Part shown: positions 5,771 to 64,000 of the stretch, piece after piece
Position numbering within the stretch: the first letter of the stretch is position 1
Layout of the letters: each line of letters starts with the position of its first letter
Assembly: GCA_946055075.1 (NCBI GenBank)
Contig: CAMGEN010000003.1
Location: 13,036 to 77,035 of the forward strand
Reading direction: 5' to 3'
Source of the DNA: an uncultured Verrucomicrobiota bacterium
GTDB lineage: Bacteria; Verrucomicrobiota; Kiritimatiellia; RFP12; UBA1067
Length of the DNA stretch: 64,000 nucleotides
Position numbers and translations under genes: made by a program
The notes under the pieces: generated by a model
What the model saw: only the letters and a program-made list of their open reading frames with translations
Database searches by the model: none
What the model was told of the DNA's origin: nothing

Positions 5771-5808
5771 AATTCCTCATTATTCATTCATAGTTCTTCA
5801 CATTCTCA
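5771..5808 (-). repeat. heptamer-type purine-rich array upstream of the kinase-fold gene
   Basis: Minus strand reads GAGAATGTGAAGAACTATGAATGAATAATGAGGAATTGTGGAGG. Confidence 0.55.
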
Positions 5809-8448
5809 GACGACGTCGTGCTTGCCGTAGTAGGCGTTGAGGTACATCTGCCTGATCTCCTTCATCAGCGGATAGCGCGGGTTCGCGCCGGTGCACTGAT
5901 CGTCGAAGGCCTGCTCGGTCATGTCGTCGAGACGCGCAAGGAAGTCCTGCTCGTCAGGGACGTAATCGCGGATCGTCGGCTTGATGCCGATGCGCTTCTT
6001 GAGCTCGCGGATCTCCTTGAGGAAGTTCATGAACCGCTCGCCCTTGGTCTTGCCCTCGATGCCGAGCGCGTCCGCGATCTCGAGATAGCGCTCGAGCGTA
6101 TGCGGATGATCGTACTGCGGGAAGGTGCCCATCTTGCGCGGCACGGGGTCGGCATTGAACCTCAGCACCTCCTCCATCATCAGCGCGTTGGCGATGCCGT
6201 GCGGGATATGGTGGAACGCACCAAGCTTGTGGGCCATCGAGTGCATCACGCCGAGGAACGCGTTCGCAAAGGCCATGCCGGCCATGGTCGCGGCGTTGGC
6301 CATCTTCTCGCGCGCCTTCGGAGCGGCGTACTTGCCGACCGCCGCGTCGTAGCACTCCGGAAGGTACTTGAAGATGTCCTTGAGCGCCTGGATGGCGAGT
6401 CCGTCCGTATACGCCGTCGCGAGCATCGAGGCATATGCCTCGAGCGCGTGCGAGACGGCGTCGATGCCCGACGCGCTCGTGAGACCGGGAGGCGCCATCA
6501 TCTGCACGTCCGCGTCGACGATCGCCATCTTGGGCATCAGCTCGTAGTCCGCGAGCGGATACTTCGTCCCCGTCTTCTCATCGGTGATGACCGCGAACGG
6601 CGTCACTTCGGAGCCGGTTCCGGCCGAGGTCGGGATCGCGACGAAATAGGCCTTTTCGCCCATCTTCGGGAAGGTGTAGACGCGCTTGCGGATGTCCATG
6701 AAGCGCATCGCCATGTCCATGAAGTCGCACTCGGGATGCTCGTAGAGGACCCACATGATCTTCGCGGCGTCCATCGCCGAGCCGCCGCCGATAGCGATGA
6801 TGACGTCCGGCTTGAACCCGGCCATCAGCTTCGCGCCCTCCTTGGCGCAGGCGAGCGTCGGATCGGGAGCGACGTTGGAGAACGTCGTGAACATGATGCC
6901 CTGGCTTTCGAGCGACTTCTCGATCGGCTTCGTGTAGCCGTTCGAATAGAGGAAGGAGTCCGTCACGATGAACGCCTTCTTCTTCGCCATCACCTCGCCG
7001 AGTTCGCGGAGCGCCACCGCGAGGCACCCCTTCTTCTGGTACACCTTCTCGGGTGCGCGGAACCACAGCATGTTCTCTCTGCGAATGGCCATAGTCTTGA
7101 TGTTGATGAGGTGCTTGACGCCGACGTTCTCCGAAACCGAGTTGCCGCCCCAGCTGCCGCAGCCGAGCGTGAGGGACGGCGGCAGCGCGAAGTTGTAGAT
7201 GTCGCCGATGCCGCCGAGGGACGACGGCGAGTTGACGATCAGGCGGCACGCCTTCATGCGGTCCGCGAACCTGTCGAGCTTCTCCTTCTCGTTGAGTTCG
7301 TCGATCCAGATGACGGACGTGTGGCCGAGGCCACCGTTGTTGACGAGGAGCGCCTCCGCAATGTCGAGGGCGTTGTCGAAGTCCGTCGACCTGTACATGC
7401 CGAGGATGGTCGTCAACTTCTCGTGTCCGAACGCCTCGCTCGTATCGGTGGACGTCGCCTCGCCGATCAGCACCTTCGTGTCCTCCGGCACCTCGAAACC
7501 GGCCATCTTCGCAATCGTGACGGGACGCTGGCCGACGATCTTCGCGTTCAGCGCGCCGTTGATGAGCATCGTCTGACGGATGAGGTCCTTCTCCTTCTCG
7601 TTCAGGAAGTAGCAGCCGCGCTTCGTGAACTCGTCCTTCACGAGGTCGTAGATCTCCTGATCGACGATCACGGTCTGCTCGGTCGCGCAGATCATGCCGT
7701 TGTCGAAGGTCTTCGAATGGATGATCGAGTTGACGGCGTTGACGACGTCGCAGCTCGGATCGAGGATCGCCGACGCGTTGCCCGCGCCGACACCGAGCGC
7801 CGGCGTACCCGAACTGTAGGCGGCCTTCACCATGCCCGGACCGCCCGTCGCGAGGATGATGTCCACCTCCTTCATGAGGAGGTTCGTCTTCGGAAGCGAC
7901 GGCTGCTCGATCCACGCGATAATGTCCTTGGGCGCGCCCGCCTCGACGGCGGCGTCCAGGACGATCTTCGCCGCGGCGATCGTGCAGTTCTTCGCCCGGG
8001 GATGGGGACTGATCACGATGCCGTTGCGGGTCTTGAGCGCGAGAAGCGTCTTGAAGATCGCAGTCGAGGTCGGATTGGTGGTCGGAATCACCGCGCCGAT
8101 CACGCCGATCGGCTCGGCGAGCTTCTCGATTCCCGCCGCCTCGTCCTTCTCGATGACGCCGCAGGTCTTCACGTCCTTATACGCGTTGTATATGTACTCG
8201 GCGGCGTAATGGTTCTTGATCACCTTGTCCTCGACGATGCCCATGCCAGTCTCGGCGACCGCCTGCTTCGCGAGCGGTATACGCTGACGGTTCGCCGCCA
8301 GGGCCGCCGCCTTGAAGATCGCGTCCACCTGCTCCTGTGAATACGTGGAATACGTCCGCTGGGCAGCGCGTACACGCTCCAGCATCGCCTCGAATTCAGC
8401 CATTCCGTCATCCGGCCGATCTGCCGGGTTCGTCGCATTTTCCGCCAT
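5806..8448 (-). CDS. adhE: bifunctional acetaldehyde-CoA/alcohol dehydrogenase
   Basis: About 880 aa with an N-terminal aldehyde dehydrogenase domain and a C-terminal iron-type ADH domain. Start set to MAENATNP (8448), preceded by GGAGATAAC. The track ORF extends to 8637. Confidence 0.95.
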   Translation of the reverse strand: MAENATNPADRPDDGMAEFEAMLERVRAAQRTYSTYSQEQVDAIFKAAALAANRQRIPLAKQAVAETGMGIVEDKVIKNHYAAEYIYNAYKDVKTCGVIEKDEAAGIEKLAEPIGVIGAVIPTTNPTSTAIFKTLLALKTRNGIVISPHPRAKNCTIAAAKIVLDAAVEAGAPKDIIAWIEQPSLPKTNLLMKEVDIILATGGPGMVKAAYSSGTPALGVGAGNASAILDPSCDVVNAVNSIIHSKTFDNGMICATEQTVIVDQEIYDLVKDEFTKRGCYFLNEKEKDLIRQTMLINGALNAKIVGQRPVTIAKMAGFEVPEDTKVLIGEATSTDTSEAFGHEKLTTILGMYRSTDFDNALDIAEALLVNNGGLGHTSVIWIDELNEKEKLDRFADRMKACRLIVNSPSSLGGIGDIYNFALPPSLTLGCGSWGGNSVSENVGVKHLINIKTMAIRRENMLWFRAPEKVYQKKGCLAVALRELGEVMAKKKAFIVTDSFLYSNGYTKPIEKSLESQGIMFTTFSNVAPDPTLACAKEGAKLMAGFKPDVIIAIGGGSAMDAAKIMWVLYEHPECDFMDMAMRFMDIRKRVYTFPKMGEKAYFVAIPTSAGTGSEVTPFAVITDEKTGTKYPLADYELMPKMAIVDADVQMMAPPGLTSASGIDAVSHALEAYASMLATAYTDGLAIQALKDIFKYLPECYDAAVGKYAAPKAREKMANAATMAGMAFANAFLGVMHSMAHKLGAFHHIPHGIANALMMEEVLRFNADPVPRKMGTFPQYDHPHTLERYLEIADALGIEGKTKGERFMNFLKEIRELKKRIGIKPTIRDYVPDEQDFLARLDDMTEQAFDDQCTGANPRYPLMKEIRQMYLNAYYGKHDVV

Positions 8449-8505
8449 AGTTATCTCCTTCTTCGCTTTCACCGCCGAAAGACCTCTTCCGGCGCAACAA
8501 GTCAT

Positions 8506-8544: not shown

Positions 8545-8579
8545 TCTTTTATCGGTATTTTTGGTATAATATGTGCGCA

Positions 8580-39254: not shown

Positions 39255-39262
39255 CAGCAGAC

Positions 39263-44885: not shown

Positions 44886-44913
44886 CCTTTGACCTCAACC
44901 TTCAACCTGACGG
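44876..44913 (-). repeat. GGTTGAR array between fmt and rluA, inverted relative to 44102-44140
   Basis: Minus strand reads CCGTCAGGTTGAAGGTTGAGGTCAAAGGTTGAGAGCGG. Confidence 0.8.
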
Positions 44914-47404: not shown

Positions 47405-48760
47405 TCACCGCACGGTGATGAGTTCGGACCAGTTGGTGGTGGAACGCTTCGATAGCAACGAGCGCTTCATCTTCCATTCACGGACGATGCCTTCCGAGGC
47501 AGAGAACACCTTGTCGCGTCCGTACCGCGCGTTGAGCGCGTCGATCGCCTGATAGAGCTTCGAGGATTCACGCGGCGCGGATTCGGAAAAGAGATCGAGC
47601 TGCTGCGTCGCGCCGACATGTTCTAGTCCGAAGAAGACAACTCCCGACTTGCGATACCGCGCACCTGGAACCCAGAGCGCCTCGACCCCGTCACTGATCG
47701 CCTTGAGCATCTTGTTGGTCGCGTCCGTCGGCTCAGGAAACATCACGGTCTCGCTCACGAAGTTCGCCTCCCACCCTTCGTCACTTTCAAACATGCCGGG
47801 CTTCGCGAGCTGCGCGTAGATGTTGCAGCCGGACGCGAGGAGTCCGTGCTTGCGCAGCTTCACCGCCGCCTGGGAAGCGAAGGAGGCGACGGACTCCGAA
47901 AGCTCTTCAAGCGTCGTCACGGGACGCCCGAACGAACGCGAACACGAAACCGAATCCGGGTCCGCATCATAATCGCGATCTTGACTGCAGCCGACGCCAC
48001 GAAGCTCGGTCGCGGTCCTGAGCAGCGTCACGCCGCCGATCCTGCGCACCACGTCGTCGGGCGCGTCACGGAGATCCTTCGCACTCGCGATCCGATCGGC
48101 CATTAGCTTGTTGACAAGCCTACGTCCGACCCCCCACACCTCGCCCACTGGCAGCCGCGCAAGGATGTCCGTCGAATCTTCCGGGAGGATGTAGACGCCA
48201 CCAGGCAGTTTCTTGCCGATGTGATTCGCGATCTTGGCGAGCGTCTTCGTCGGCGCAAACCCAACCCCGCACGGGATCCCCGTCCACCGCAGTATCTTCT
48301 TCCTCAGCCTTCTCCCGTATTCTAAAAGCTTTTCCCTCCGCAACTCTTCACTCTTACCTCTTAACTCTTCACTTCTATCCGCCGGCTCCGCCGGCGGATA
48401 GATAAACGCCTCGTCAATCGAATACTGTTCGACATCCAGCGCCTCCTCACGGAGAATGGAGACTATCCGTCGGGACATGTCGCCGTAGAGTTCGTAATTC
48501 GACGAGCGGAAGATCAGCTCTCCAGTCTTCTCGCGGTCCTTCAGCTGGAAGTAAGGAGTGCCGCGCGGAATTCCGAGCGCCTTGAACTCGTTCGACATCG
48601 CGACGCAACAGCCGTCGTTGTTCGAAAGCACGGCAACCGGCTTCCCGACGAGCTTGCGGTCAAACACCCGCTCGCAGGAAACGTAGAAATTGTTACCGTC
48701 AACAAGTCCGATCACAGGGAATGGGGAATGGGGAATAGGGATAGATTCATTTTCCGCCAT
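47405..48760 (-). CDS. umuC: Y-family translesion DNA polymerase V catalytic subunit
   Basis: Motifs VDGNNFYVSCERVFD, YSIDEAF and PTKTLAKIANH. Carries heptamer-encoded segments at the N-terminus and after IDEAF. Confidence 0.9.
   Translation of the reverse strand: MAENESIPIPHSPFPVIGLVDGNNFYVSCERVFDRKLVGKPVAVLSNNDGCCVAMSNEFKALGIPRGTPYFQLKDREKTGELIFRSSNYELYGDMSRRIVSILREEALDVEQYSIDEAFIYPPAEPADRSEELRGKSEELRREKLLEYGRRLRKKILRWTGIPCGVGFAPTKTLAKIANHIGKKLPGGVYILPEDSTDILARLPVGEVWGVGRRLVNKLMADRIASAKDLRDAPDDVVRRIGGVTLLRTATELRGVGCSQDRDYDADPDSVSCSRSFGRPVTTLEELSESVASFASQAAVKLRKHGLLASGCNIYAQLAKPGMFESDEGWEANFVSETVMFPEPTDATNKMLKAISDGVEALWVPGARYRKSGVVFFGLEHVGATQQLDLFSESAPRESSKLYQAIDALNARYGRDKVFSASEGIVREWKMKRSLLSKRSTTNWSELITVR
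48334..48380 (-). repeat. 44-47-nt GTGAAGA-type element, in-frame copy in umuC
   Basis: Plus strand reads CCCTCCGCAACTCTTCACTCTTACCTCTTAACTCTTCACTTCTATCC. Encodes DRSEELRGKSEELRRE. Confidence 0.9.
48717..48744 (+). repeat. GGGGAAT array in the umuC 5' end
   Basis: GGGAATGGGGAATGGGGAATAGGGATAG. Encodes IPIPHSPFP. Confidence 0.85.
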
Positions 48761-49193
48761 TTTTAAACCTATGAATTACTGCCGTAACCATCCCAAAATA
48801 ATCCAACTCATGACCATCGTCAATTCGAATTACCGGATACTTATCATTACCAGGTTCCAGCACATATCTTTTTTTAACAGCCTTCTTCTTCCCATTCCCC
48901 ATTCCCAATTCCCCATTCCCTTCAACGCGCAAGCGTTTGACCGTAAATTCGCCGTCCACGGACGCAATGATGATATCACCGTCGACAGGTGTAAGCGAAC
49001 GATCCACCACCAGCAGATCGCCGGGATTGATGCCGGCATCGATCATCGAGTCGCCTTCTACACGGACGAAGTACGTCGCTGCGGGACGCTTCACCAAGAG
49101 CGCATTCAAGTCGAGCGGCGGTTCCAGATACTGCTCCGCCGGCGACGGAAATCCCGCCACCACCGATCCCGCGACTCTCGCCTTACCGGACAT
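48747..49193 (-). CDS. umuD: UmuD (S24 LexA-like self-cleaving peptidase)
   Basis: AG-FPSPAEQY cleavage region, GDSM serine and FTVKRL lysine. Overlaps umuC by 14 nt. Confidence 0.85.
   Translation of the reverse strand: MSGKARVAGSVVAGFPSPAEQYLEPPLDLNALLVKRPAATYFVRVEGDSMIDAGINPGDLLVVDRSLTPVDGDIIIASVDGEFTVKRLRVEGNGELGMGNGKKKAVKKRYVLEPGNDKYPVIRIDDGHELDYFGMVTAVIHRFKNGGK
48891..48920 (-). repeat. GGGGAAT array in umuD, inverted relative to 48717-48744
   Basis: Plus strand reads CCCATTCCCCATTCCCAATTCCCCATTCCC. Encodes EGNGELGMGNG. Confidence 0.85.
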
Positions 49194-49195
49194 TC

Positions 49196-49234
49196 ACCAC
49201 CTCTTTCTCGACCTCGACCTATAACCTGACACCT
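49196..49234 (-). repeat. GGTCGAG-type array between the radical SAM gene and umuD
   Basis: Minus strand reads GGTGTCAGGTTATAGGTCGAGGTCGAGAAAGAGGTGGTG. Confidence 0.7.
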
Positions 49235-50135
49235 ACTTCACCGTCCCGTGATCAGCGGACATGTTCTCGCCGAGCAGCGCCAGCTTCGGATCGCTCGCCT
49301 CATAGCCCTGAATCCATCCGTTCTCAAATCCGAAATCCGCCGCGGCCTCGGTGACGCTCTCGTATTCCTCCTTCGTCACGGACCGATTGAACGGCGGAGT
49401 CTCCAGAGCCTTGTACGCCGGAGTATATTGCGCCATAATTGAAACCGGAATCTCGCTCGAAAGTTCCGTCGCGAGCCACGCAAGATTCTCGATCGCCTCA
49501 TCCGCATGTCCCGGCAGCACTAACACTCTAACAATTAACCTCCGCAACTCTTCACTCTTCACTCTTACTTCTTCACTTCTCTCAAACGCCCACTTTACCG
49601 CGGCGCGGGAGGCCTCGACATAACCGGGGGCGGAACTCGCCTTGATCGCGGTCTCGTTTTTGGAGTAACGGAGATCGAAAAGCGCCCAATCACAGAGATC
49701 ACTGTATTCCTCCAATGTCTCAACGCGTTCATAGCCAGACGAATTCCAGACGAACGGAAGTCTGACACCTTCCTTGAAGAGCGGCTCGACCGCCTCGCGG
49801 ATATACGGCAGATACGGCGTCGGCGAAACAAGATTCCAGTTCTCCACCTTGTCCTTCACCGCCAGCTCGCGGAAGATCGCCGTCAGTTCGGGAATCGTCT
49901 TGTCAACGCCTTCACCCTTCCAGCTCCACGGCGAATTCTGACAGTAAAGACACTTCATCGTGCAACGAGAGAAGAACACGCAGCCGCTACCACGCTCACC
50001 GGTGATCGGCGGTTCCTCCCCGAAATGCGGCCCCCACCGGAATACCCGCGGCAAATCCGCCGCGCCGCAGTAACCGGGACGCTTGCCGCACTTTCTCGGA
50101 CACAGCTCGCAAATATCGAAACGGCAACTGCTCAC
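49233..50135 (-). CDS. radical SAM protein, PflX-like (pyruvate formate-lyase activase homologue)
   Basis: CTMKCLYCQN motif, 300 aa, GTG start. Contains an in-frame copy of the 44-nt element. Confidence 0.75.
   Translation of the reverse strand: MSSCRFDICELCPRKCGKRPGYCGAADLPRVFRWGPHFGEEPPITGERGSGCVFFSRCTMKCLYCQNSPWSWKGEGVDKTIPELTAIFRELAVKDKVENWNLVSPTPYLPYIREAVEPLFKEGVRLPFVWNSSGYERVETLEEYSDLCDWALFDLRYSKNETAIKASSAPGYVEASRAAVKWAFERSEEVRVKSEELRRLIVRVLVLPGHADEAIENLAWLATELSSEIPVSIMAQYTPAYKALETPPFNRSVTKEEYESVTEAAADFGFENGWIQGYEASDPKLALLGENMSADHGTVK
49537..49583 (-). repeat. 44-nt GTGAAGA-type element, in-frame copy in the radical SAM gene
   Basis: Plus strand reads AACCTCCGCAACTCTTCACTCTTCACTCTTACTTCTTCACTTCTCTC. 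Encodes ERSEEVRVKSEELRRL. Confidence 0.9.
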
Positions 50136-50224
50136 TGATCACCACTCCATGTTCACTGTCCCAGAAACTCGTTCACCCTCGTCTTGTTATCGGTGTAATC
50201 CTTGCCCCATACCTAATCCCTACC

Positions 50225-51511
50225 TTATATCCTGTCCTTTTCCAGAAAACGAAGGCGAGCCAGAAGGATGACAAGCGCACCAATGAGATAGAAGACGGAA
50301 AGCGAGGACATCGAAAGCGCCATATTACCGAAAACCTTCGCGAGCCAGGGGAGCACCGTGGAGGATAGCGAACCGACAAGGAAAGCGATGCACATCATGA
50401 TGCCGACGCCGGAAGCATGATAACGCGGATTGACCACATCAAAGAACGATGCAATAAAGTTCGAGTCGTAGACGCCGCGGAAGAATCCGAAGCCGAGCAT
50501 CGCGACACAACACGCGATGAAGGTCGGCGCGTTCGCCATCCAGATGATAAACGGAACCGAAAGCGCAAGTCCAGCCACGCCGAGCTCCAGACGGATTCCT
50601 GGACGGCGCTTCGCAACCTTGTCTCCGAAACGCGATCCAAGCATCACGCCGACGATCGCGCCTACATAATGCCAGACGACGGCATGAAACCCGTGCCAGG
50701 TCTTGAGGAATATGTTCTTACCCGCATCTAGATCCATGTAATGACCCTGCAGGAACGCCGGCATCCAGTTCTTGAAGCCGATGTCAACATAGATCATCAT
50801 CGCCAAGCCCAAAATCACGCAGATCGCTGTTGGCTTGGAGAAGACCGACGCGACCGCTTCGCGGATCGTCGGTTTTCCAGGTTGAAGGTCGGAGGCTGAA
50901 GGTTGAACGGCGGATTCGACCGGTTTGGTGTTCTTAAGGAACACGGAGAGCAGAACCGCCCAGCCAATACCGATCGCGCCGAAGGTCCAGAACGGAACAC
51001 GCCAGTGTTCGCCGCCCTGTCCCGCCACGAAACCAGCGAGCGTTCCGCAGCCGATGATGCCGAGGTAGAGCCCGAGCTGGAGGATGGACATCGCCGTCGC
51101 GCGCGAATCCTTATGAAGCTGCGACACCAGCGAGGTGGCCGAGGGATAGTAGAAGGTCTGGCCGAGTCCGTTAAGGACGCCGTACGTGACGACCAGCAGG
51201 CCGACGGATGCCACGAAGCCAGAGAGGAAGATGCCGAGACAGAACACCGCGACGCCGATCGTCACCATCCACTTGCGGCTGAAGAGGTCCGCGGTGATTC
51301 CGGCGATCGGCACGCAGATGCCGTACATCATCGCGAACACCGTTCCCACGACGCCGATCGCCACCTTCGCATCCTCCGGATCCGTGGTCGGCAACAACGT
51401 CGCACACATTGCCCCGAGGGACGGCCCGTACAACTGACGAGTACCCTGTTGAAGAAAGAACGCAACCCACAGCAGGATCAACGCCGTCCACTTGTAATCA
51501 AGTTTTTTCAT
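50225..51511 (-). CDS. MFS transporter (anion/sugar-acid symporter-like)
   Basis: About 12 TM segments. Start at MKKLDYKW (51511), 9 nt downstream of TATAAT. Confidence 0.8.
   Translation of the reverse strand: MKKLDYKWTALILLWVAFFLQQGTRQLYGPSLGAMCATLLPTTDPEDAKVAIGVVGTVFAMMYGICVPIAGITADLFSRKWMVTIGVAVFCLGIFLSGFVASVGLLVVTYGVLNGLGQTFYYPSATSLVSQLHKDSRATAMSILQLGLYLGIIGCGTLAGFVAGQGGEHWRVPFWTFGAIGIGWAVLLSVFLKNTKPVESAVQPSASDLQPGKPTIREAVASVFSKPTAICVILGLAMMIYVDIGFKNWMPAFLQGHYMDLDAGKNIFLKTWHGFHAVVWHYVGAIVGVMLGSRFGDKVAKRRPGIRLELGVAGLALSVPFIIWMANAPTFIACCVAMLGFGFFRGVYDSNFIASFFDVVNPRYHASGVGIMMCIAFLVGSLSSTVLPWLAKVFGNMALSMSSLSVFYLIGALVILLARLRFLEKDRI
50877..50910 (+). repeat. GGTTGAA/GGTCGGA array inside the MFS gene (central loop)
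   Basis: CCAGGTTGAAGGTCGGAGGCTGAAGGTTGAACGG. Encodes VQPSASDLQPG. Confidence 0.75.
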
Positions 51512-54474: not shown

Positions 54475-55938
54475 TCAATTCTCCTTTACGTGATAAACCG
54501 CGAACCCATACGCACCCAGCCTGAAGACGTTCGCGCCCGTCTTCTCCGCGCGTCTCGATATCAGCGGTTCCGCGGCAAAAGTGCCGCGGAGAGAGCGATC
54601 CGGGGACACCTCGACCGTGTCCGTCGTCTTGGTGACGGCCTTAAGCTCGAAATCCACCGAGACGTCGACTGACCGGTCGGACCAGTTCTGCACGACGAAC
54701 ATCGTCTCGCCCTTTCCGCGGCGGACGAACGCCGTGACCTCGTCCGGCTGCGAGGTCTGCAGCCAGATCATTCCGTCGAACCCGCTCACCGCGGTGAACG
54801 CGGGATGTTCGCGACGGATCGCGGAGAGCTTCTGCACGAGCGCGTGACGGTACCTGCCGTAGTCCGTCTCGAGCGCAGACCAGTCGAGCGGCGTACGACC
54901 GAACATCGAATGCTTCTCATCCGCTTCGGCGAATTCGTTGCCGTTGAAGAAGAGCGGAATTCCGTCCGCCGTCAGCAGCCACACGCAGACCTGGTCCATC
55001 GCCTCGTGTCCGAACGCATTCTCGCGACGGGGACGCACATCGGTCGCGATGTCGTGGTTGTCGTAGTGATTGACGAAACGTGAACCGCGCGGATGAACCG
55101 CGGTCTGACTGTCCCAACGGCGGCGAATGCACTGCGCGTCCCGCTTCCCGTCCTTGAGGAACACCTCGCACGGGAACCAGCCGTAGTCGGCGTCGAACGC
55201 CTTCTGCTGGTTCGCGCAGTTCTGTCCCTCGCAGATCATCGCGGCATGATTGGCAGTGACCGCGTTCATCATGTCGCGGGCGTCGCACCAGAAATCCAGC
55301 GGCACCTGGTCTCCGACATCGCAGCGAAAGCCGTCGCAGCCGTATTCGGTGAGCAGATAGCGCATGTTGCCGATCAGGTATTCGCGCAGCTTCGGCTCCT
55401 CGAAGTTAAGCTTCGGAAAACGCCACGGTCCCTTCTTCACCGTGCCGTCGCCATTCCAATAGGTGAACTCGGGATGTTCCTTCAGAAACGGCGCGGCCGG
55501 ACCGCAGTGAAGATACACTAGGTCGAACATCACGTACATCCCGAGCTGATGCGCCGCCGCGACGAAGTCCTTGAGGTCCTGGTCGGTGCCGTACTCCGGA
55601 TCGACATGGAAGTAGTCCGCCATACGGTACTGGTTCCTCGGACAGTTGAAGCCGCTCTTGATCTGTCTCGGACTCCAGAAGCTCTGGTCCATGTCCTCAT
55701 CCATCTTCATCACCGGAACGAGATAGAGGATAGTGAAGCCAGAGTCCTTCAGATACGGAAGCTTTGCCTCCGCAGCCTTCAAGGTCCCTTCCTTAGTGAA
55801 CGCCCGCGGCTGGATCTGACAAATGACACCTTTCGTAAACCACTCCGGTGCCTTTCGCGCATTCGTGTAGCACGTATTGTCTGCAAGCGCCACCGCCGCC
55901 ACCAGTCCGAGCATCAACGTAATGATTTTTCCCACCAT
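54475..55938 (-). CDS. secreted GH13 (alpha-amylase family) enzyme
   Basis: Signal peptide, GFRCDVGDQ (region II) and NHYDNHD (region IV). Confidence 0.75.
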   Translation of the reverse strand: MVGKIITLMLGLVAAVALADNTCYTNARKAPEWFTKGVICQIQPRAFTKEGTLKAAEAKLPYLKDSGFTILYLVPVMKMDEDMDQSFWSPRQIKSGFNCPRNQYRMADYFHVDPEYGTDQDLKDFVAAAHQLGMYVMFDLVYLHCGPAAPFLKEHPEFTYWNGDGTVKKGPWRFPKLNFEEPKLREYLIGNMRYLLTEYGCDGFRCDVGDQVPLDFWCDARDMMNAVTANHAAMICEGQNCANQQKAFDADYGWFPCEVFLKDGKRDAQCIRRRWDSQTAVHPRGSRFVNHYDNHDIATDVRPRRENAFGHEAMDQVCVWLLTADGIPLFFNGNEFAEADEKHSMFGRTPLDWSALETDYGRYRHALVQKLSAIRREHPAFTAVSGFDGMIWLQTSQPDEVTAFVRRGKGETMFVVQNWSDRSVDVSVDFELKAVTKTTDTVEVSPDRSLRGTFAAEPLISRRAEKTGANVFRLGAYGFAVYHVKEN

Positions 55939-55942
55939 AACG

Positions 55943-55976
55943 CTTCAGTATTCACTATTCACTGTTCACTTGACAG
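55943..55976 (-). repeat. GTGAATA array upstream of the GH13 gene
   Basis: Plus strand reads CTTCAGTATTCACTATTCACTGTTCACTTGACAG. Confidence 0.75.
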
Positions 55977-57314: not shown

Positions 57315-57347
57315 CAGTTGAAGTATGAAGTTGAAGTTGAAGAGCGG
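57315..57347 (+). repeat. AGTTGAA array between the GH10 and dehydratase genes (pyrimidine strand in the mRNA)
   Basis: CAGTTGAAGTATGAAGTTGAAGTTGAAGAGCGG. Confidence 0.8.
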
Positions 57348-57356: not shown

Positions 57357-59444
57357 TTACTTGAAGGTGAGTTCGTTCTTCGGATCCATGAGCATGAGCG
57401 AGCACCACCAGTTGCCAGAGCTGCCGCAACGGGTCTTGAACTCGATCGTATTCTCGCCCTCCTTGAGCTGGATCTTGACGCGCTTCCACTCGTCCGTAGT
57501 ACCGCTGAAGCTGCGAATATAACCGCCGTTAACGGTGAGCTCGCCGAACCAGTCGTTCATCTCGCCGATTTCGAGTTGCATATCCCGCGGCGCGACGACA
57601 TTGAAAGTCAGCGAGACGTTCTCGACGCCGTCCGCATTAAGCACGGGAACATAACCCGTGGGACCGTTCAGCTGGAAACGTCCGTCAACATCCGTCTTGA
57701 GCGGGATAACGCCCTTCTTGCAGGTTAGCGTCGCCTGCTCGACGAGGCGCGCTCCGCGCGGAAGCGCCGTGCCGACATTGTCGACGTACGCATCATTGAG
57801 CGTTTCCTTAATTCCGTCGCCTTCAAGATGGATGACTCGCCAGAAAACGTGTCCGCTCTGCGGATCCTTCCACGAGAGACGGTACTTGCCACGGAAGCCG
57901 CGGAACTTCACGAACGCCGCGCACTCGTCGCCACCTTCGGCCGCGACCTTGAGATTCGTCTTCCACTCATGGTTGATGAGCTGATCGAGCGCCTCGTAGG
58001 CGGGCTTCTTCTTCATGTCCGTGGTGAAGAGTCCGGAGACGAGCGGCTCGCCCTTCACGCCTCCGCCGTCGACGGTGTTCCACCAGGTGATGCCCATCAG
58101 GGACTTGTGGGAGAACCACTTGCGGTAGATATTACGCGTAAGCACGGCCTGGATCATACGGCTTCTGGCATCCGATCCCGGCGAGGTGATGGTTATCTCG
58201 GAGACGTGGATGGGCTTGCCGGTCTTCGCCATCATGTCGAGGCGATCCTGGATCGTCCTGGGCGTGCCGACCCAGTTGATGTTCGTCTCGCCCTGCGCGA
58301 GCCGTGCGCAGTCATTGGTGTTGAAGATGTGCATCTGGCAGCCGACGATATCGATCTTCGCGCCCTGCTGCTCGAGGTCCTTGACCTGGGCGAGGAAGTC
58401 GTCACAGATGTTATAGTCGTTAATGTTGAGCTTCGCCCACGCTGGGAACGCCTCCTTGGCGTCGAGGAGCGCATGGAGCGGATAGTCGCCGGGCATGAGT
58501 CCGTAGAGCGAGAACCACACCGGGAGCCCCGTGCGCGACTTGCGGTAACGCGACCAGTCGCGCGAACTCTCGTTCACGACGTCCCAGCTGTCCACGAGTT
58601 CTCCGTAGTCCTTAGCGACATCGAAGACGCGCTTGCGGAAGATGCGGCGCATCGCCTGCGTGAACTCTGGGAGCTTTTCGCCGACTTCCTTTTCGGTCAC
58701 GGCATCATAGACGCGGTTCCAGCGCGACTTCCACGAACCGTTCCAGCCGCCGTCCCAGTTGTTGACATCGTCAACAGACTCGCCGAAACGCGGAATGCCG
58801 AGGTGCTCGATGTAGCGCTTCTCGTTCTCGGGACAGTAGTCAGTGTAGATCCAGGTCGGCTTGGCGCTACCCCAGATGAGGATGTGTCCGTGAACCCTCA
58901 CGCCCTTCTCCTTGCAGAAGGTCACGATCGGTCCAGGCGCAGGACGGCGCCAGAAAGGATGCGCCATCGCCTCATCGCGCGTAAGCGAATTCCAGAAGTA
59001 GGGAGTGTCCTCGAAATCGCCGAACGCGCGGAGGCGTCCCGGCACCGGCTCATAGCAGTTCCAGTAGTACGCGACAGTCGCAGAATTAAAGATGCCGCCG
59101 CGTCCGTAGCTCGCCTTGTAGACATCGTTGTATTCCTTCTTCCCGAGCTGGTCGAAGTTGAAGATGTGGGCGCCGAACTTGAACTCGTGGTCGAGCTGTT
59201 CGACCGTTACTTCGGTTCCCTGCGAGACCGGCAGCGCCACTACGGCGTCCGCCTTGCGGTTCGCCTCGATGTCAGCATCGATCTTCGCCTGTTCGGCGTC
59301 ATTCCAGATCTCCCAGTACTTCTCGCTCATCACCGACGGGTCGATCTTGAAGTCCGCCGAAGCCAGCGCCGTGAAAGCTACGAACAGTGAGCAGTGTGCA
59401 ATGATCAGTTGCGGAATCTTGAATTTCGTCTTGTCAGCTTTCAT
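57357..59444 (-). CDS. secreted GH10-like glycoside hydrolase with C-terminal beta-sandwich extension
   Basis: Motifs GHILIWG, WDVVNES, NDYN, GCQMH and HVSEITIT (nucleophile Glu). N-terminal signal/anchor. Confidence 0.8.
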   Translation of the reverse strand: MKADKTKFKIPQLIIAHCSLFVAFTALASADFKIDPSVMSEKYWEIWNDAEQAKIDADIEANRKADAVVALPVSQGTEVTVEQLDHEFKFGAHIFNFDQLGKKEYNDVYKASYGRGGIFNSATVAYYWNCYEPVPGRLRAFGDFEDTPYFWNSLTRDEAMAHPFWRRPAPGPIVTFCKEKGVRVHGHILIWGSAKPTWIYTDYCPENEKRYIEHLGIPRFGESVDDVNNWDGGWNGSWKSRWNRVYDAVTEKEVGEKLPEFTQAMRRIFRKRVFDVAKDYGELVDSWDVVNESSRDWSRYRKSRTGLPVWFSLYGLMPGDYPLHALLDAKEAFPAWAKLNINDYNICDDFLAQVKDLEQQGAKIDIVGCQMHIFNTNDCARLAQGETNINWVGTPRTIQDRLDMMAKTGKPIHVSEITITSPGSDARSRMIQAVLTRNIYRKWFSHKSLMGITWWNTVDGGGVKGEPLVSGLFTTDMKKKPAYEALDQLINHEWKTNLKVAAEGGDECAAFVKFRGFRGKYRLSWKDPQSGHVFWRVIHLEGDGIKETLNDAYVDNVGTALPRGARLVEQATLTCKKGVIPLKTDVDGRFQLNGPTGYVPVLNADGVENVSLTFNVVAPRDMQLEIGEMNDWFGELTVNGGYIRSFSGTTDEWKRVKIQLKEGENTIEFKTRCGSSGNWWCSLMLMDPKNELTFK

Positions 59445-59451: not shown

Positions 59452-59495
59452 ACCTCCTCAACTCTTAACTCTTCACTCTTACTTCTTCACTTATC
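59452..59495 (-). repeat. 44-nt GTGAAGA-type element, intergenic copy upstream of the GH10 gene
   Basis: Plus strand reads ACCTCCTCAACTCTTAACTCTTCACTCTTACTTCTTCACTTATC. It differs at 3 of 44 positions from 49538-49581. Its GAGGAGG end serves as the SD of the GH10 gene. Confidence 0.9.
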
Positions 59496-62884: not shown

Positions 62885-62906
62885 CTGCCGATAACAAGAA
62901 CTTCCA

Positions 62907-64000
62907 ATGAAACGTGTGCTCGTAGCGTTGCGGTTGCAGGGGATCGCGGGACAGGAGAAATTGAGCGGCATCTTCCGCTATCTCGGCGACTCGCCTGAAT
63001 GGGATGTGAGGTTCATCCGTTCGGCACAGGAGTTCACCGCCGCACGGGTGAAGACCGCGATCGCGGACGGATATGACGGCTTCATCGTATCCATACCGGA
63101 CGCCGAACGCGCGGCGGAACCGCTCGCCGATACCGACATCCCGACGATCGTGATGGATATCCACAGTCCCGCCCTTTCCGCCCGCCGGAAGAACATCGTC
63201 TTCATCCGCAACTCGCCGGAAGAGATCGGGAGGTCCGCGGCGAACCACCTGCTTTCCATCGGACGCTGCCGGTCCTACGCCTTCGTGCATCATCAGTCCG
63301 TCATGCAGTGGAGCGTCGACCGCTTCAACGCCTACCGCGACACCTTGCGCGAACACGGCTTCGAATGTCACGAACTGAAATCGCCCGAAGGCATCGAGAA
63401 GCTGGAGCGTCCCGTCGGCGTCTTCGCCGCGAACGATGACCGCGGTTACGATGTGATCGAGTTCTGCCGCGCGAATCAGCTGCGAGTTCCCGAAGATATC
63501 GCGGTGATCGGCATTAACAATGACACGCTCGTCTGCGAGAACTGTCATCCTCGCCTCTCCTCCATCCAGCCCGACTTCGAACAAGAGGGCTATCTCGCGG
63601 CGGAAACCCTCTCGCGCATGATGCACCCCGCACCCTGCACCCCGCACCCTGCACCCCGCACCCTCTTCGTCGGCGTGAAGCAGGTGGTCCGTCGCGAATC
63701 TACCGCGGAACTTTCACTCTCGGGCAAGCTCGTCCAGCGCGCGCTCGTCTATATCCGCAAGAACGCGCTCAAGGGCATTTCGGTAACGGACGTCGCGGCG
63801 CATCTCCATGTCTCACGCCGCCTCGCCGACCTCAGATTCCGCGAACTCCAGGGCACGACCATCGGCGAGACCATCATCAGCGAACGGCTCACGGAAGTGA
63901 AGCGGCTGCTGCGCGAGACGAAGGACCCGATCGACGCGATCGCGGTCCGTTGCGGCTACGAGAACCCCAACTACCTGAAGAACCTCTTCAAGCGCCGCTT
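62907..64000 (+). CDS. XylR-like regulator (periplasmic-binding-protein-like sensor domain plus AraC HTH), truncated by the window end
   Basis: Not in the ORF track because there is no stop in the window. My own translation reads MKRVLVALRLQGIAGQEKL...GVFAANDDRGYDVIEF...AraC-type C-terminus (RCGYENPNYLKNLFKRR). Confidence 0.8.
   Translation, partial: MKRVLVALRLQGIAGQEKLSGIFRYLGDSPEWDVRFIRSAQEFTAARVKTAIADGYDGFIVSIPDAERAAEPLADTDIPTIVMDIHSPALSARRKNIVFIRNSPEEIGRSAANHLLSIGRCRSYAFVHHQSVMQWSVDRFNAYRDTLREHGFECHELKSPEGIEKLERPVGVFAANDDRGYDVIEFCRANQLRVPEDIAVIGINNDTLVCENCHPRLSSIQPDFEQEGYLAAETLSRMMHPAPCTPHPAPRTLFVGVKQVVRRESTAELSLSGKLVQRALVYIRKNALKGISVTDVAAHLHVSRRLADLRFRELQGTTIGETIISERLTEVKRLLRETKDPIDAIAVRCGYENPNYLKNLFKRR
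63624..63665 (+). repeat. six CACCCYG heptamers, in frame in the XylR-like linker
   Basis: CACCCCG CACCCTG CACCCCG CACCCTG CACCCCG CACCCTC. Encodes HPAPCTPHPAPRTL. Same unit as 39276-39320. Confidence 0.9.

What the first reader, a model, noticed from the sequence alone, without database searches (positions are those of the whole stretch)
5771..63665. Dispersed family of degenerate heptanucleotide tandem arrays in intercistronic spacers and inside conserved genes
I count at least about 20 short arrays, each 28-75 nt. They are tandem 7-nt units (occasionally 6- or 8-nt) that are G/purine-rich and almost C-free on one strand.

Unit types and positions:
- GGTTGAG(G): 44102-44140, 44876-44913, 38779-38816, 50877-50910
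- GGGGAAT/GGGGAAC: 44337-44379, 48717-48744, 48891-48920
- GTGAAGA/GTAAGAG: 48334-48380, 49537-49583, 59452-59495
- GGTGCRG: 39276-39320, 63624-63665
- GTGAATA: 55943-55976, 5771-5808
- GTGGTAG: 40118-40198
- AGTTGAA: 57315-57347
- GGTCGAG: 49196-49234

Weaker versions fill most thi-operon spacers. The units differ but share an RGKNRAR-like pattern. Many arrays end in a TGCGGAGG or CGGNGG motif.

The arrays occur in both orientations relative to transcription. For example, the pyrimidine strand lies directly upstream of the gph-like and dehydratase start codons. So they are not simply SD-rich leaders.

Two precedents I know are the STRR heptamer repeats of heterocystous cyanobacteria and the in-frame palindromic elements (RPE) of Rickettsia. 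I do not recognise this family.
Basis: partly seen in the sequence, partly recalled or inferred. Interest (0 to 1): 0.85.

Follow-up and report, generated by a model that had tools for sequence, protein, structure and literature searches.

The report
Dispersed heptamer arrays in gut Kiritimatiellia
An uncultured gut bacterium (class Kiritimatiellia) carries about twenty short, fast-changing runs of 7-base repeats, half of them translated as extra loops inside ordinary enzymes; this is a new example of a known but unexplained kind of bacterial repeat, and it looks more like a by-product of DNA copying errors than a dedicated control system.

Summary
Tandem arrays with a 7-nt period (some 6 or 8 nt) occur 10-12 times in the window, against about 0-0.5 in shuffled sequence. 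All lie in 38-64 kb. Fifteen of the 17 listed arrays are periodic on their own; 5771-5808 and 40118-40198 are not simple tandem arrays. The arrays recur in six or more independent gut-metagenome assemblies of the same species, so they are not artefacts.

The organism is an uncultured gut Kiritimatiellia. About half the arrays fill spacers between co-directional genes. The rest are read in frame as loops of IspH, MazG, RluA, a Y-family polymerase, a UmuD-like protein, a radical-SAM enzyme, an MFS transporter, a GH10 and an AraC-type regulator.

Strains differ at the arrays by whole units (8 nt in a spacer, 21 or 42 nt in genes), by the same substitution in every unit, or by replacement. A 44-nt cassette is 93% identical between a spacer and a coding loop. 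Related species carry their own unit families at the same sites. A gut Prevotella has near-identical GTGAAGA arrays.

Best reading: long-unit microsatellites that arise by slippage, spread by short-tract copying and are filtered by selection. They are akin to STRR, GGGNATC and TAACTGA heptamer repeats. This is a new variant of a known, unexplained kind.

The parts
5763..5806 (-). Weak, non-periodic relative of the 44-nt GTGAAGA-type cassette. It lies in the spacer between the AdhE-like gene (5806-8637) and the APH-family kinase gene (4923-5753). In mRNA sense it ends ..GTGGAGG, 10 nt before the ATG.
   Evidence: the repeat finder family D1, 73% identity to the reference copy. Spacer sequence. 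Periodicity not significant, p=0.19. Pfam assignments of the flanking genes.
38779..38816 (+). GTTGAGR array (period about 8), read in frame from the opposite strand as IspH loop 2 (..NPSTRNFSTSQLTL..).
   Evidence: TRF. p=0.0005. The six other strains carry GGGGAAY units here, with 4 or 7-8 copies differing by 21 nt. Falls in the variable loop relative to E. coli IspH. Sits in the second-lowest-confidence stretch of the model (mean pLDDT 80 for residues 151-160), with no helix or strand.
39133..39173 (+). GGTGCRG array, read in frame from the opposite strand as IspH loop 1 (SPSAPCTQHPAP).
   Evidence: TRF and lag scan. It is a 6-aa insertion relative to E. coli IspH. Alleles with and without 7 aa exist (SPSAPV versus SPSAPCTLHPAPV). 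Mean pLDDT is 75 for residues 31-40, the lowest of the model.
39261..39332 (-). Composite array. A GTGAAGAG cassette has six GTGCRGR units nested inside it. It forms a 16-aa C-terminal extension of MazG plus the MazG-IspH spacer, and ends ..GTTGCGGAAG 7 nt before the IspH ATG.
   Evidence: TRF periods 7, 14 and 21. Sequence in purine orientation. A 57-nt presence/absence difference: present in the window, L001 and L003, absent in L002 and L004-L006. MazG is 280 versus 264 or 258 aa among strains.
40126..40200 (.). Inverted pair of GTGGTAG-type short arrays forming a hairpin in the spacer between the HAD-like gene (40199-40864) and mazG.
   Evidence: Inverted repeat I13. RNA fold -43.2 kcal/mol, z = -6.6. 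The same spacer holds inverted array pairs with other units in L062, L064, L066, L067, L068 and L080.
44102..44140 (+). GGTTGAGG array (8-nt unit, 4.4 copies) that fills the whole rluA-gph(HAD) spacer. The mRNA carries the C-rich strand right up to the ATG, with no SD.
   Evidence: TRF 92% matches. Spacer sequence. Strains differ by exactly one 8-nt unit.
44331..44379 (+). GGGGAAY array inside the RluA-type pseudouridine synthase gene, translated from the opposite strand as SPVPHSPSPVPHS. G-quadruplex-capable.
   Evidence: TRF periods 7 and 21. ORF translation. G4 motif. Absent from the nearest alignable homologue in L023.
44876..44913 (-). GGTTGAR array in the fmt-rluA spacer or the 5' end of rluA, with the purine strand in the mRNA.
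   Evidence: TRF. p=0.016. Spacer sequence.
48334..48380 (-). 44-45-nt GTGAAGA-type cassette in frame inside the Y-family polymerase (IMS) gene, translated as SEELRGKSEELRRE and ending GTTGCGGAGG.
   Evidence: D1 family, 86% identity. It is a 12-aa insertion relative to Dbh/Dpo4. Other strains carry GGGAAYA units of the same length here, with the same substitutions in every unit.
48708..48746 (+). GGGGAAT array in codons 5-17 of the Y-family polymerase gene (IPIPHSPFPV). G4-capable.
   Evidence: TRF 94% matches. ORF translation. G4 motif.
48883..48924 (-). GGGGAAT array in the S24 peptidase (UmuD/LexA-like) gene, translated from the purine strand as GNGELGMGNG. G4-capable.
   Evidence: TRF 91% matches. 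ORF translation. Pfam family. It is 92% complementary to 48716-48741, 154 nt away.
49196..49234 (-). Weak GGTCGAG/GGTTATA array filling the spacer between the radical-SAM gene and the S24 gene. In mRNA sense it ends ..AGAGGTGGTGA just before the ATG.
   Evidence: Spacer sequence. p=0.03.
49537..49583 (-). Reference copy of the 44-45-nt GTGAAGA-type cassette, in frame (15 codons, SEEVRVKSEELRR) inside the radical-SAM gene.
   Evidence: D1 reference copy. It is 93% identical to the spacer copy at 59452-59495. Other strains have a different 45-nt segment here that includes a GGTTGAG array of opposite polarity.
50190..50224 (-). Weak GGTAGGG/GATTAGG run just after the MFS stop codon.
   Evidence: Spacer sequence. 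Not significant in the lag scan.
50877..50910 (+). GGTTGAA/GGTCGGA array in the MFS transporter gene, translated from the opposite strand as AVQPSASDLQPG.
   Evidence: TRF. p<0.0005. ORF translation.
55931..55976 (-). GTGAAYA array filling the spacer between the MR_MLE (enolase-superfamily dehydratase-like) gene and the alpha-amylase-family gene. A distant member of the 44-nt cassette family.
   Evidence: TRF 90% matches. D1 family, 68% identity. Spacer sequence. Identical in four further strains.
57315..57347 (+). AGTTGAA array (period 6-7) between the GH10 stop codon and the MR_MLE start codon. The mRNA carries the pyrimidine strand directly upstream of the ATG.
   Evidence: TRF. p=0.008. 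Pfam families of the flanking genes.
59382..59409 (+). Degenerate heptamer run in the N-terminal codons of the GH10 gene. In strain L090 the homologous stretch is a cleaner TCATTCT array that is complementary to that strain's spacer array.
   Evidence: Lag scan. Alignment A1. Folds: L090 z = -2.1; the allele shared by the window and L091 z = +0.4.
59452..59495 (-). GTGAAGA-type 44-nt cassette filling the RraA-like/GH10 spacer. It ends GTTGAGGAGG 9 nt before the ATG, so it supplies the SD.
   Evidence: D1 family, 93% identity. Spacer sequence. The L090 allele has GAAGAAT units where the window has GAAGAGT, the same change in every unit.
63615..63668 (-). GGTGCRG array (14-nt super-unit, 100% matches) in frame inside a + strand AraC-family / Peripla_BP_3 regulator gene (62907 to beyond 64000), translated as HPAPCTPHPAPRT. 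G4-capable on the - strand.
   Evidence: TRF. Translation and Pfam. Gene call in L092. Same unit family and peptide as IspH loop 1. G4 motif.

Best explanation
These are long-unit microsatellites: short (4-6 copy), degenerate arrays of C-free 7-nt units (some 6 or 8 nt). The units belong to a few inter-related families: GTGAAGA, GTTGAGG, GGGGAAT and GGTGCRG. The host is an uncultured gut Kiritimatiellia.

Proposed mechanism, with shown and inferred steps marked:
1. Arrays grow, shrink and homogenise by replication slippage or transient misalignment. The footprints are shown; the mechanism is inferred.
2. Arrays are copied between loci over about 45-nt tracts by template switching or ectopic gene conversion. 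The copies are shown; the mechanism is inferred.
3. Selection then decides where they persist (inferred):
   - In spacers between co-directional genes. There, purine-sense copies end in GGAGG and act as the ribosome-binding site, and inverted pairs make hairpins.
   - In surface loops of enzymes. There, only stop-free strands and frames, and lengths divisible by three, survive.

On this view the arrays are mainly a mutational by-product with incidental co-option. They are not a dedicated regulatory or mobile system.
For: Slippage footprints:
- A spacer array differs among strains by exactly one 8-nt unit.
- Genic arrays differ by 21 or 42 nt, that is 7 or 14 aa.
- Alleles at one site differ by the same substitution in every unit: AGTGAAG versus AGGGAAY in the polymerase gene, and GAAGAGT versus GAAGAAT in the RraA-GH10 spacer.

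Copying between loci:
- A 44-nt cassette is 93% identical between spacer 59452-59495 and the radical-SAM coding copy at 49538-49581, and 86% identical to the polymerase copy.
- In L087 both IspH loops carry the same roughly 45-nt CCCACCAA array.
- The peptide HPAPCT.HPAP occurs in both IspH and the AraC-type regulator.

Selection filter:
- Across 1.3 Mb of related genomes there are 44 arrays in spacers and 20 in genes, although 87% of the sequence is coding. That is about a 14-fold enrichment in spacers.
- Of the genic arrays, 15 have the stop-rich purine strand antisense and 4 have it sense.
- In IspH the arrays are the two lowest-confidence, non-regular loops of an otherwise pLDDT-94 model, and they are insertions or variable segments relative to E. 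coli IspH.

No single orientation:
- Roughly 7 arrays have the purine strand on + and 10 on -, with all neighbouring genes on -.
- The arrays sit in unrelated housekeeping genes.

Lineage-specific unit families occupy the same sites in different species.

The polymerase-slippage explanation for the bacterial excess of heptamer SSRs is an existing hypothesis (quoted in PMC4692102).
Against: - Slippage alone cannot seed a multi-unit array in an essential gene, because intermediate states are frameshifts. Step 2 is therefore required, but it is only inferred.
- Very similar GTGAAGA-type arrays (24 specified bases identical) occur in a different phylum, Prevotella sp. CAG:1058. A pure by-product model does not predict this.
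- In the HAD-like/mazG spacer, hairpins built from arrays recur in seven species with different units. That looks like selection for structure.
- The 44-nt cassette is sense-oriented in all 7 copies.
- Why units are 7-8 nt long and C-free is not explained.
- Only 64 kb of this genome was available, plus about 20-kb neighbourhoods from relatives.
Confidence: 0.5

Rival explanations
1. The arrays are cis-acting RNA or DNA elements selected for function. Candidate functions are portable leaders that set translation initiation or coupling (SD-rich in one orientation, unstructured C/A-rich in the other), hairpins that stabilise or terminate transcripts, and G-quadruplexes. The genic copies would then be tolerated spill-over.
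For: - Spacer arrays abut start and stop codons and can make up the whole spacer. Purine-sense copies place GGAGG 7-10 nt before the ATG.
- All 7 copies of the 44-nt cassette are in sense orientation.
- Array-built hairpins recur in the same spacer in seven species with different units (z = -4.4 to -7.8).
- All four G4 motifs in the 64 kb lie in arrays.
- Published analogues were interpreted this way: TAACTGA repeats just upstream of start codons, and GGGNATC repeats within 50 bp of ORF ends.
Against: - More than half of the arrays in this window are inside coding sequences of unrelated housekeeping genes.
- Spacer arrays occur in both orientations.
- In several relatives (for example L087) the orthologous genes abut or overlap with no spacer at all.
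- Presence/absence and unit-number differences are seen among strains only 1-5% apart.
- The hairpin in the RraA-GH10 leader exists in one allele only.
- Three of the four unit families include members that cannot form G4.
- No Rfam family matches.
Confidence: 0.22
2. The arrays are miniature mobile elements, like the small dispersed repeats of Nostoc, MITEs or Rickettsia RPEs. A dedicated enzyme encoded elsewhere would move them, and they would be tolerated in frame.
For: - Near-identical 44-45-nt cassettes with defined ends occur at unrelated sites.
- One array is nested inside another at 39261-39332.
- The radical-SAM site shows a whole-segment replacement.
- A roughly 170-nt palindromic element with heptamer-array arms is inserted in frame in IspH of L089 (fold -74.7 kcal/mol, z = -10.9).
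- The same motif occurs in another phylum.
Against: - No target-site duplication or clean empty/filled junction was found. The one presence/absence case is a replacement, not an insertion.
- No transposase or reverse transcriptase lies near any array.
- Array length varies in unit steps rather than as a fixed element.
- The unit families grade into one another by 1-2 substitutions per unit.
- No copies of the cassette were found in viral contigs.
Confidence: 0.15
3. The arrays accumulate by a transmission bias (molecular drive). They could act as uptake-signal-like or recombination-favouring motifs that are preferentially fixed through the frequent homologous recombination between strains.
For: - Like DNA uptake sequences (own knowledge: Neisseria DUS, Pasteurellaceae USS), they are lineage-specific, occur in both orientations, form inverted pairs after genes and sit in tolerant parts of proteins.
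- IspH alleles are mosaics of loop-1 and loop-2 variants, which shows recombination.
Against: - There are several unit families per genome rather than one motif.
- The motifs are tandem rather than single.
- There is no evidence of competence genes or of biased uptake. This rival is entirely untested here.
Confidence: 0.05
4. The genic arrays are selected at the protein level, as hypervariable or disordered loops that give a benefit such as escape from phage or inhibitor proteins.
For: - The two IspH loops are hypervariable across about 120 homologues and carry 7- or 8-aa periodic peptides.
- Borg tandem repeats have been read this way (PMC9879509, listed; abstract only).
Against: - The units are 7 or 8 nt, not multiples of 3, so the periodicity is set at the DNA level.
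- The same units fill non-coding spacers.
- The hosts are cytoplasmic housekeeping enzymes.
- The same peptide appears in unrelated proteins.
Confidence: 0.05
5. The arrays are chance or assembly artefacts.
For: One scaffold (L005) has an N-gap inside an array.
Against: - There are 10-12 arrays against 0-0.5 expected.
- Identical arrays appear in independent assemblies from different samples and assemblers.
- All reading frames stay open through the arrays.
Confidence: 0.01

Closest known systems
GGGNATC-type G-rich heptamer repeats of Xanthomonas (GGGAATC) and Nostoc (GGGGA(C/T)T), Rehm et al. 2015, PMC4692102
   Same: - Tandem 7-nt units with strong G/C strand asymmetry, dispersed over many loci.
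- Preferentially between co-directional ORFs and within about 50 bp of start or stop codons.
- About four units typical.
- Length and sequence vary between close relatives at the same intergenic sites, and some occur as inverted pairs.
- Function unknown.
- The GGGAATG unit here differs from GGGAATC at one position, and four arrays here are G4-capable.
   Different: - No GGGNATC tandem occurs in the window.
- Here there are several unit families, most of them unable to form G4.
- The units are C-free.
- More than half of the arrays in the window are in frame inside genes, whereas the published repeats are under-represented in coding sequence.
- The phylum is different.
TAACTGA direct repeats of Beggiatoaceae, Cyanobacteria and some Bacteroidetes, MacGregor 2015, PMC4679880
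   Same: - Heptamer direct repeats of 2-6 copies, mostly within a few nucleotides upstream of start codons, often without a canonical SD.
- A minority lie in ORFs, where the stop-free strand is the one translated.
- The phylogenetic distribution is patchy across phyla.
   Different: - That case has a single fixed unit, and no TAACTGA tandem occurs here.
- There the in-ORF copies are at protein termini or in hypothetical proteins. Here they are internal loops of conserved enzymes.
STRR (short tandemly repeated repetitive) heptanucleotides of heterocystous cyanobacteria (Mazel et al. 1990; own knowledge, and mentioned in PMC4692102)
   Same: Several heptamer families per genome, tandem, dispersed and lineage-specific. 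Function unexplained.
   Different: STRR1-3 unit sequences are absent. The host is not a cyanobacterium.
[quoted passage not shown] 2007, as summarised in PMC4692102)
   Same: The general phenomenon, and the polymerase-slippage hypothesis proposed for it. The GC content here is 51-65%.
   Different: That work is a statistical observation. It describes no loci, in-frame cases or copying between sites.
Rickettsia palindromic elements (RPE) and Nostoc small dispersed repeats (Elhai et al. 2008) (own knowledge)
   Same: Small repeats tolerated in frame inside conserved proteins at permissive sites. Nostoc SDRs are associated with tandem heptamers. L089 IspH carries a palindromic in-frame insertion.
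   Different: The arrays in the window are direct repeats of variable length, not fixed palindromic elements. No sequence similarity was tested or is expected.
Phase-variable contingency-locus SSRs
   Same: Slippage-prone tandem repeats with copy-number polymorphism among strains.
   Different: Here the repeats are degenerate and sit in housekeeping genes and operon spacers. Genic indels come only in frame-preserving 21-nt steps, and no ON/OFF frameshift alleles were seen.

Membership tests
Dispersed heptameric SSR families of bacteria (STRR / GGGNATC / TAACTGA kind) | Head-to-tail tandem copies of a 7-nt unit, a few to tens of copies | tested here: met
   TRF period-7 arrays with 3-8 copies. 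Ten lag-7 arrays against 0 in shuffles. Some arrays have 6- or 8-nt units.
Dispersed heptameric SSR families of bacteria (STRR / GGGNATC / TAACTGA kind) | The same unit recurs at many unlinked loci of one genome | tested here: met
   Four unit families with 3-7 loci each within 26 kb. A genome-wide count was not possible.
Dispersed heptameric SSR families of bacteria (STRR / GGGNATC / TAACTGA kind) | Enrichment in non-coding DNA, especially between co-directional ORFs near start and stop codons | tested here: inconclusive
   Met in relatives: 44 spacer versus 20 genic arrays at 87% coding, about 14-fold. In the window itself about 11 of 20 arrays are genic.
Dispersed heptameric SSR families of bacteria (STRR / GGGNATC / TAACTGA kind) | Copy-number and sequence variation between close relatives at the same site | tested here: met
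STRR of cyanobacteria | Unit sequences CCCCA(A/G)T, TT(G/T)GTCA or CAACAGT, in a heterocystous cyanobacterial host | tested here: not met
   No tandem of any STRR unit in the window. The host is a gut Kiritimatiellia.
GGGNATC quadruplex-forming repeats (Rehm 2015) | Unit GGGNATC or GGGGA(C/T)T, with four or more G-tracts able to form a G4 | tested here: not met
   No GGGNATC or GGGGAYT tandem. The GGGGAAY and GGTGCRG arrays do give four G4 motifs, but the GTGAAGA, GTGAATA and AGTTGAA arrays cannot form G4. G4 folding itself cannot be tested with these tools.
TAACTGA repeats (MacGregor 2015) | Unit TAACTGA | tested here: not met
   One single TAACTGA in the window and no tandem.
Phase-variable contingency loci | Near-perfect SSR in the promoter or 5' coding region of surface or restriction-modification genes, with frameshifted ON/OFF alleles among strains | tested here: not met
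   The arrays are degenerate and sit in IspH, polymerase, radical-SAM and similar genes. All strain alleles keep the frame, with 21- or 42-nt steps.
Miniature mobile elements (MITE / RPE / SDR) | Fixed-length element with defined ends, target-site duplication, and empty versus filled sites | tested here: inconclusive
   A 44-45-nt cassette with shared ends occurs at 4-7 sites. However, there is no TSD, the only presence/absence pair is a replacement, and lengths vary in unit steps.
Miniature mobile elements (MITE / RPE / SDR) | A cognate transposase or other mobilising enzyme in the genome | not testable with these tools
   Only 64 kb of this genome plus about 20-kb neighbourhoods were readable. 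None was seen in them.
CRISPR or other Rfam-described RNA elements | Match to a curated RNA family, or a repeat-spacer architecture | tested here: not met
   No Rfam hit at gathering threshold in the window. The units are contiguous, with no spacers.

The most novel reading that the evidence does not exclude
The arrays are written by an active, sequence-specific copying process rather than by ordinary slippage. Candidates are a template-switching or reverse-transcription-like repair activity, or a transmission bias. This process would install the same C-free 7-nt cassettes, pre-formed and in frame, into essential enzymes and into operon spacers. It would also be shared, or exchanged, between unrelated gut phyla (Kiritimatiellia and Prevotella). 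That would finally give a mechanism for the decades-old puzzle of bacterial heptamer repeats.
Probability: 0.15. Interest if true: 0.8.

Novelty: new variant of a known kind. Interest (0 to 1): 0.5.

Why it matters
Dispersed heptamer repeats have been known in cyanobacteria since 1990, and later in Xanthomonas and Beggiatoaceae. No origin or function has been established for them.

This lineage offers unusually good material for the question:
- Many co-occurring strains and sister species are present in public gut metagenomes.
- Arrays turn over at identifiable sites.
- There is direct evidence for unit-wise concerted change and for cassette copying between a spacer and coding loops.
- Essential enzymes such as IspH tolerate the arrays in two loops.

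If the by-product reading is right, the arrays are a visible mutational signature of this clade's replication and repair machinery, and a source of both loop variation and frameshift load. If a dedicated process or function exists, these sites are where it can be tested.

Practically, the arrays break alignments and scaffolds. They also inflate apparent allelic divergence in MAG-based strain analyses.

Tried and rejected
- Rfam at gathering threshold and a tRNA scan of the whole window found nothing at the arrays.
- G-quadruplex as a unifying feature is rejected. Only 4 arrays qualify.
- Contingency-locus phase variation is rejected. No frameshift alleles exist, and the genes are housekeeping genes.
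- STRR, TAACTGA and GGGNATC units are absent as tandems.
- A conserved regulatory hairpin in the RraA-GH10 leader is rejected. Only the L090 allele folds (z = -2.1); the window allele does not (z = +0.4).
- I looked for orthologues of the RluA, polymerase, S24, radical-SAM and MFS sites in 80 related loci. Synteny is not conserved, so only same-species strains aligned.
- The thi-operon spacers are purine-rich but not periodic.
- A viral-contig scan for the 44-nt cassette core gave zero hits. The GGGGAAT-type pattern gave 15 scattered viral contigs, which I did not analyse.
- Literature searches for Kiritimatiellia or Prevotella heptamer repeats found no description.
- I first took 62856-63647(-) as the gene next to array 63615-63668. 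It is a spurious ORF; the real gene is on the + strand.
- The metagenome hits could not be assigned to taxa, except L101 and L107. Some may be other parts of this same genome or its relatives.

Full report
OBSERVATION

I scanned for at least 17 matches in 21 positions at a fixed lag. Lag 7 gives 10 arrays, lags 4-13 give 0-1, and lag 14 gives 3. Order-2 Markov shuffles give none. At the laxer threshold of 15 there are 12 arrays against 0.5 expected.

Tested singly against shuffles of their own letters, 15 of the 17 listed arrays are periodic at p<0.05 and 13 at p<=0.01. Two are not:
- 5771-5808 is only a 73% relative of a 44-nt cassette family.
- 40118-40198 is an inverted pair of short arrays that folds into a hairpin (-43.2 kcal/mol, z = -6.6).

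The minority base of G and C counts 0-6 per array. All arrays lie in 38-64 kb; none lies in 1-34 kb, which has higher GC and GC3. The thi-operon spacers are purine-rich but not periodic.

ORGANISM AND REALITY OF THE ARRAYS

The PPi-phosphofructokinase of the window is encoded, with identical sequence, on at least 21 contigs from human and pig gut metagenomes. Six syntenic contigs (L001-L006) are 92-99% identical to window 31.7-51.6 kb. Four more cover 50-64 kb.

In one-genome-per-species GTDB, the closest loci are uncultured gut and rumen Kiritimatiellia MAGs, some mislabelled as Lentisphaerae or Verrucomicrobia. Their PFK identity is 75-93%. The same arrays appear in contigs made by different assemblers from different samples, so they are genuine.

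WHERE THE ARRAYS SIT

Nearly all genes in 38-64 kb are on the - strand.

About nine arrays fill, or nearly fill, spacers between co-directional genes:
- rluA-gph
- fmt-rluA
- radical-SAM-S24
- MR_MLE-amylase
- GH10-MR_MLE
- RraA-GH10
- mazG-ispH
- HAD-like-mazG (the hairpin)
- a weak one after the MFS gene

About eleven are read through in frame:
- IspH, two loops
- a MazG C-terminal extension
- an RluA-type synthase
- a Y-family polymerase, at the N-terminus and internally
- a UmuD/LexA-like S24 peptidase
- a radical-SAM enzyme
- an MFS transporter
- the GH10 N-terminus (degenerate)
- an AraC-type regulator on the + strand that runs off the window

Against solved structures, the IspH loop-1 array is a 6-aa insertion, loop 2 is a variable segment, and the polymerase array is a 12-aa insertion. 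In an AlphaFold model of IspH (mean pLDDT 94), the two array-encoded stretches are the only low-confidence, non-regular segments. Their mean pLDDT values are 75 and 80.

DYNAMICS AMONG STRAINS

The arrays are where strain alignments break. The differences are of several kinds:
- The rluA-gph spacer array differs by exactly one 8-nt unit.
- IspH loop 2 carries GTTGAGR units in the window but GGGGAAY units in six other strains. Those have 4 or 7-8 copies, differing by 21 nt.
- Across about 120 IspH homologues, length differences between near-identical proteins are 7 or 14 aa. The loop-1 and loop-2 alleles occur in mosaic combinations.
- The mazG-ispH array is a 57-nt presence/absence polymorphism.
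- In the polymerase gene the two alleles have equal length and differ by the same two substitutions in every unit, AGTGAAG versus AGGGAAY.
- In the RraA-GH10 spacer the two alleles differ by GAAGAGT versus GAAGAAT in every unit.

These last two are the footprint of concerted evolution inside arrays. At the radical-SAM site, by contrast, a whole 45-nt segment is replaced, and the array polarity changes with it.

COPYING BETWEEN SITES

The largest repeat family in the whole window is a 44-nt cassette. In mRNA sense it reads GAGAAGTGAAGAAGTAAGAGTGAAGAGTGAAGAGTTGCGGAGGT.
- The radical-SAM copy and the RraA-GH10 spacer copy are 93% identical.
- The polymerase copy is 86% identical.
- The mazG copy has six GTGCRGR units nested inside it.
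- All copies are in sense orientation.
- In spacers the 3' GGAGG lies 7-10 nt before the ATG.

Two further cases point the same way. In L087 both IspH loops carry the same roughly 45-nt CCCACCAA array, built from 8-nt units. The peptide HPAPCT.HPAP is in both IspH and the AraC-type regulator.

Stepwise slippage cannot build an array in an essential gene without passing through frameshifts. Insertion of pre-formed multi-unit tracts is therefore needed. Shared TAATT and AGA bases at the ends of the radical-SAM tract suggest microhomology-guided template switching. This is inference only.

THE CLADE

In 1.2 Mb around PFK from 80 related species, arrays with 7- and 8-nt periods are again the excess classes: 23 and 20, against 1-6 for lags 4, 5, 6, 10, 11 and 13. 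Each lineage has its own C-poor units, such as GTTAAGTR, GATTAAA, GTAGTTG and CCCACCAA. The window's unit families are essentially confined to its own species.

With a wider set (1.3 Mb, 87% coding), 44 arrays are in spacers and 20 in genes, about a 14-fold enrichment. Genic arrays have the stop-codon-rich purine strand antisense in 15 cases and sense in 4.

The two IspH loops are hypervariable throughout the clade and often carry 7- or 8-aa periodic peptides.

The HAD-like/mazG spacer contains inverted array pairs with different units in seven species. All fold strongly, with z from -4.4 to -7.8. In several relatives the same genes abut with no spacer.

One relative (L089) has a roughly 170-nt palindrome with heptamer-array arms inserted in frame in IspH (fold -74.7 kcal/mol, z = -10.9).

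BEYOND THE CLADE

I made an exact scan of JGI and ENA metagenome contigs for AAGTGAAGA-N(1-8)-GTAAGAGTGAAGAGT, which has 24 specified bases. It found 15 contigs, none matching the window. Those contigs are themselves dense in C-free heptamer arrays, often as inverted pairs.

One of them, L101, carries a rhamnose isomerase 100% identical to that of Prevotella sp. CAG:1058; L107 shares L101's sequence flanking the match and is assigned to the same species on that basis. In L101 the arrays form the arms of large palindromes around a terminator-like hairpin between convergent genes.

GGGGAAT-type arrays also occur in 15 IMG/VR viral contigs. The cassette core occurs in none.

COMPARISON WITH WHAT IS KNOWN

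- An excess of heptameric SSRs in large, GC-rich genomes, and a polymerase-slippage explanation for it, have been published (summarised in PMC4692102).
- Rehm et al. described GGGAATC and GGGGA(C/T)T arrays in Xanthomonas and Nostoc. They lie between aligned ORFs and within 50 bp of ORF ends, typically have four units, vary between close relatives, are G4-forming in vitro, and have no known function.
- MacGregor described TAACTGA repeats just upstream of start codons in Beggiatoaceae, Cyanobacteria and Bacteroidetes, with a few in ORFs on the stop-free strand.
- STRR (own knowledge) is the oldest case.

None of those unit sequences occurs in tandem here. No paper in the searchable library describes such repeats in Kiritimatiellia or Prevotella.

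The present case shares the defining features of this kind. It differs in four ways:
- It has several inter-convertible unit families.
- It has a very high share of in-frame copies inside conserved enzymes.
- It shows clear evidence of cassette copying.
- Its arrays are used as hairpin arms.

VERDICT

The most likely explanation (about 0.5) is a mutational one: slippage or misalignment plus short-tract copying, filtered by selection for reading frame, stop-free strand and permissive sites. Some copies are incidentally used as ribosome-binding spacers or hairpins.

A selected cis-regulatory role (about 0.2) and a dedicated mobile or templated mechanism (about 0.15) are not excluded. What keeps them alive is the recurrent array-built hairpins, the uniform sense orientation of the 44-nt cassette, and the cross-phylum occurrence of the same motif.

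It is a new variant of a known but unexplained kind of bacterial repeat, and of moderate interest.

Noticed in passing
window 47319-47351 and 51640-51672 (longer in - sense: GGTTACGCATATCCCCC..AGCGAAGCGA..GGGGTGCGAGA): This is a second repeat, unrelated to the arrays (88% identity over 33 nt). Both copies sit at the border of strain-variable cassettes. A PIN/DUF6364 toxin-antitoxin block at 45916-47408 is absent or replaced in other strains. To the right of 51629, strains carry nothing, a DNA methylase with GmrSD/HNH, or a methylase with RE_HindVP. It looks like an att-like or hairpin site marking an insertion hot spot for defence and TA genes.
   Followed up: partly
window 31618-31721 (-): A TPP riboswitch lies upstream of thiC-thiS-thiF-thiG-thiH. 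It scores 51 bits (E = 3e-9), just under Rfam's gathering score of 54.3, so the default scan missed it.
   Followed up: yes
window about 34000 (boundary), 1-34 kb versus 34-52 kb: Composition shifts sharply. GC is 0.61-0.65 and GC3 0.7-0.9 on the left, against GC 0.51-0.58 and GC3 0.5-0.7 in 34-52 kb. All in-frame arrays except the AraC-regulator one (63615-63668) and the degenerate GH10 run (59382-59409) lie in the low-GC3 block, and no array of any kind lies in the left 34 kb.
   Followed up: no
L089 2046-3044 (IspH of a related MAG, GCA_024712465.1), insertion about 2490-2662: A roughly 170-nt palindromic element is inserted in frame in IspH loop 2. Its arms are inverted heptamer arrays (GAATTAA/GAATGTA), and its core contains GCTTCGCTTAA..TTAAGCGAAGC. 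The RNA fold is -74.7 kcal/mol, z = -10.9. It is an RPE-like case.
   Followed up: partly
L101 2740-3010 and 6200-6630 (Prevotella sp. CAG:1058 contig, human gut): C-free heptamer arrays (GTGAAGA, GGGAAAA, GTGAACA) form the arms of large nested palindromes around a terminator-like hairpin between convergent genes. There is also a 45-nt unit repeated three times that ends in such arrays. The same kind of repeat therefore exists in Bacteroidota.
   Followed up: partly
L080 5287-5534 (RibH-PFK spacer of a related MAG): A tandem repeat of about 60 nt, roughly 3.5 copies (..CCGCTGGGTTCACGCGCTCCGATTTTTCAATTCGATTCC..), lies in the leader of the PFK gene. It is a different class of repeat from the heptamers.
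   Followed up: no
window 36150-38264 (-) and the orthologous position in L001-L006: A 704-aa protein with no Pfam match is the most divergent gene among strains. It is about 90% identical over one segment, and it is replaced by 1014-1033-aa TSP3_bac-containing proteins in some strains. It is a strain-variable, probably surface, protein next to ispH.
   Followed up: no
L005 about 13320-13345 (IspH loop-2 array): A scaffold gap (run of N) falls exactly inside the GGGGAAY array and splits the IspH gene call. Such arrays break short-read assemblies and gene calls.
   Followed up: yes
window 48716-48741 versus 48896-48921: The two GGGGAAT arrays, one in the polymerase N-terminus and one in the S24 gene, are 92% complementary and only 154 nt apart. 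They could pair in the umuD-umuC-like mRNA across the gene junction. I did not test this.
   Followed up: no
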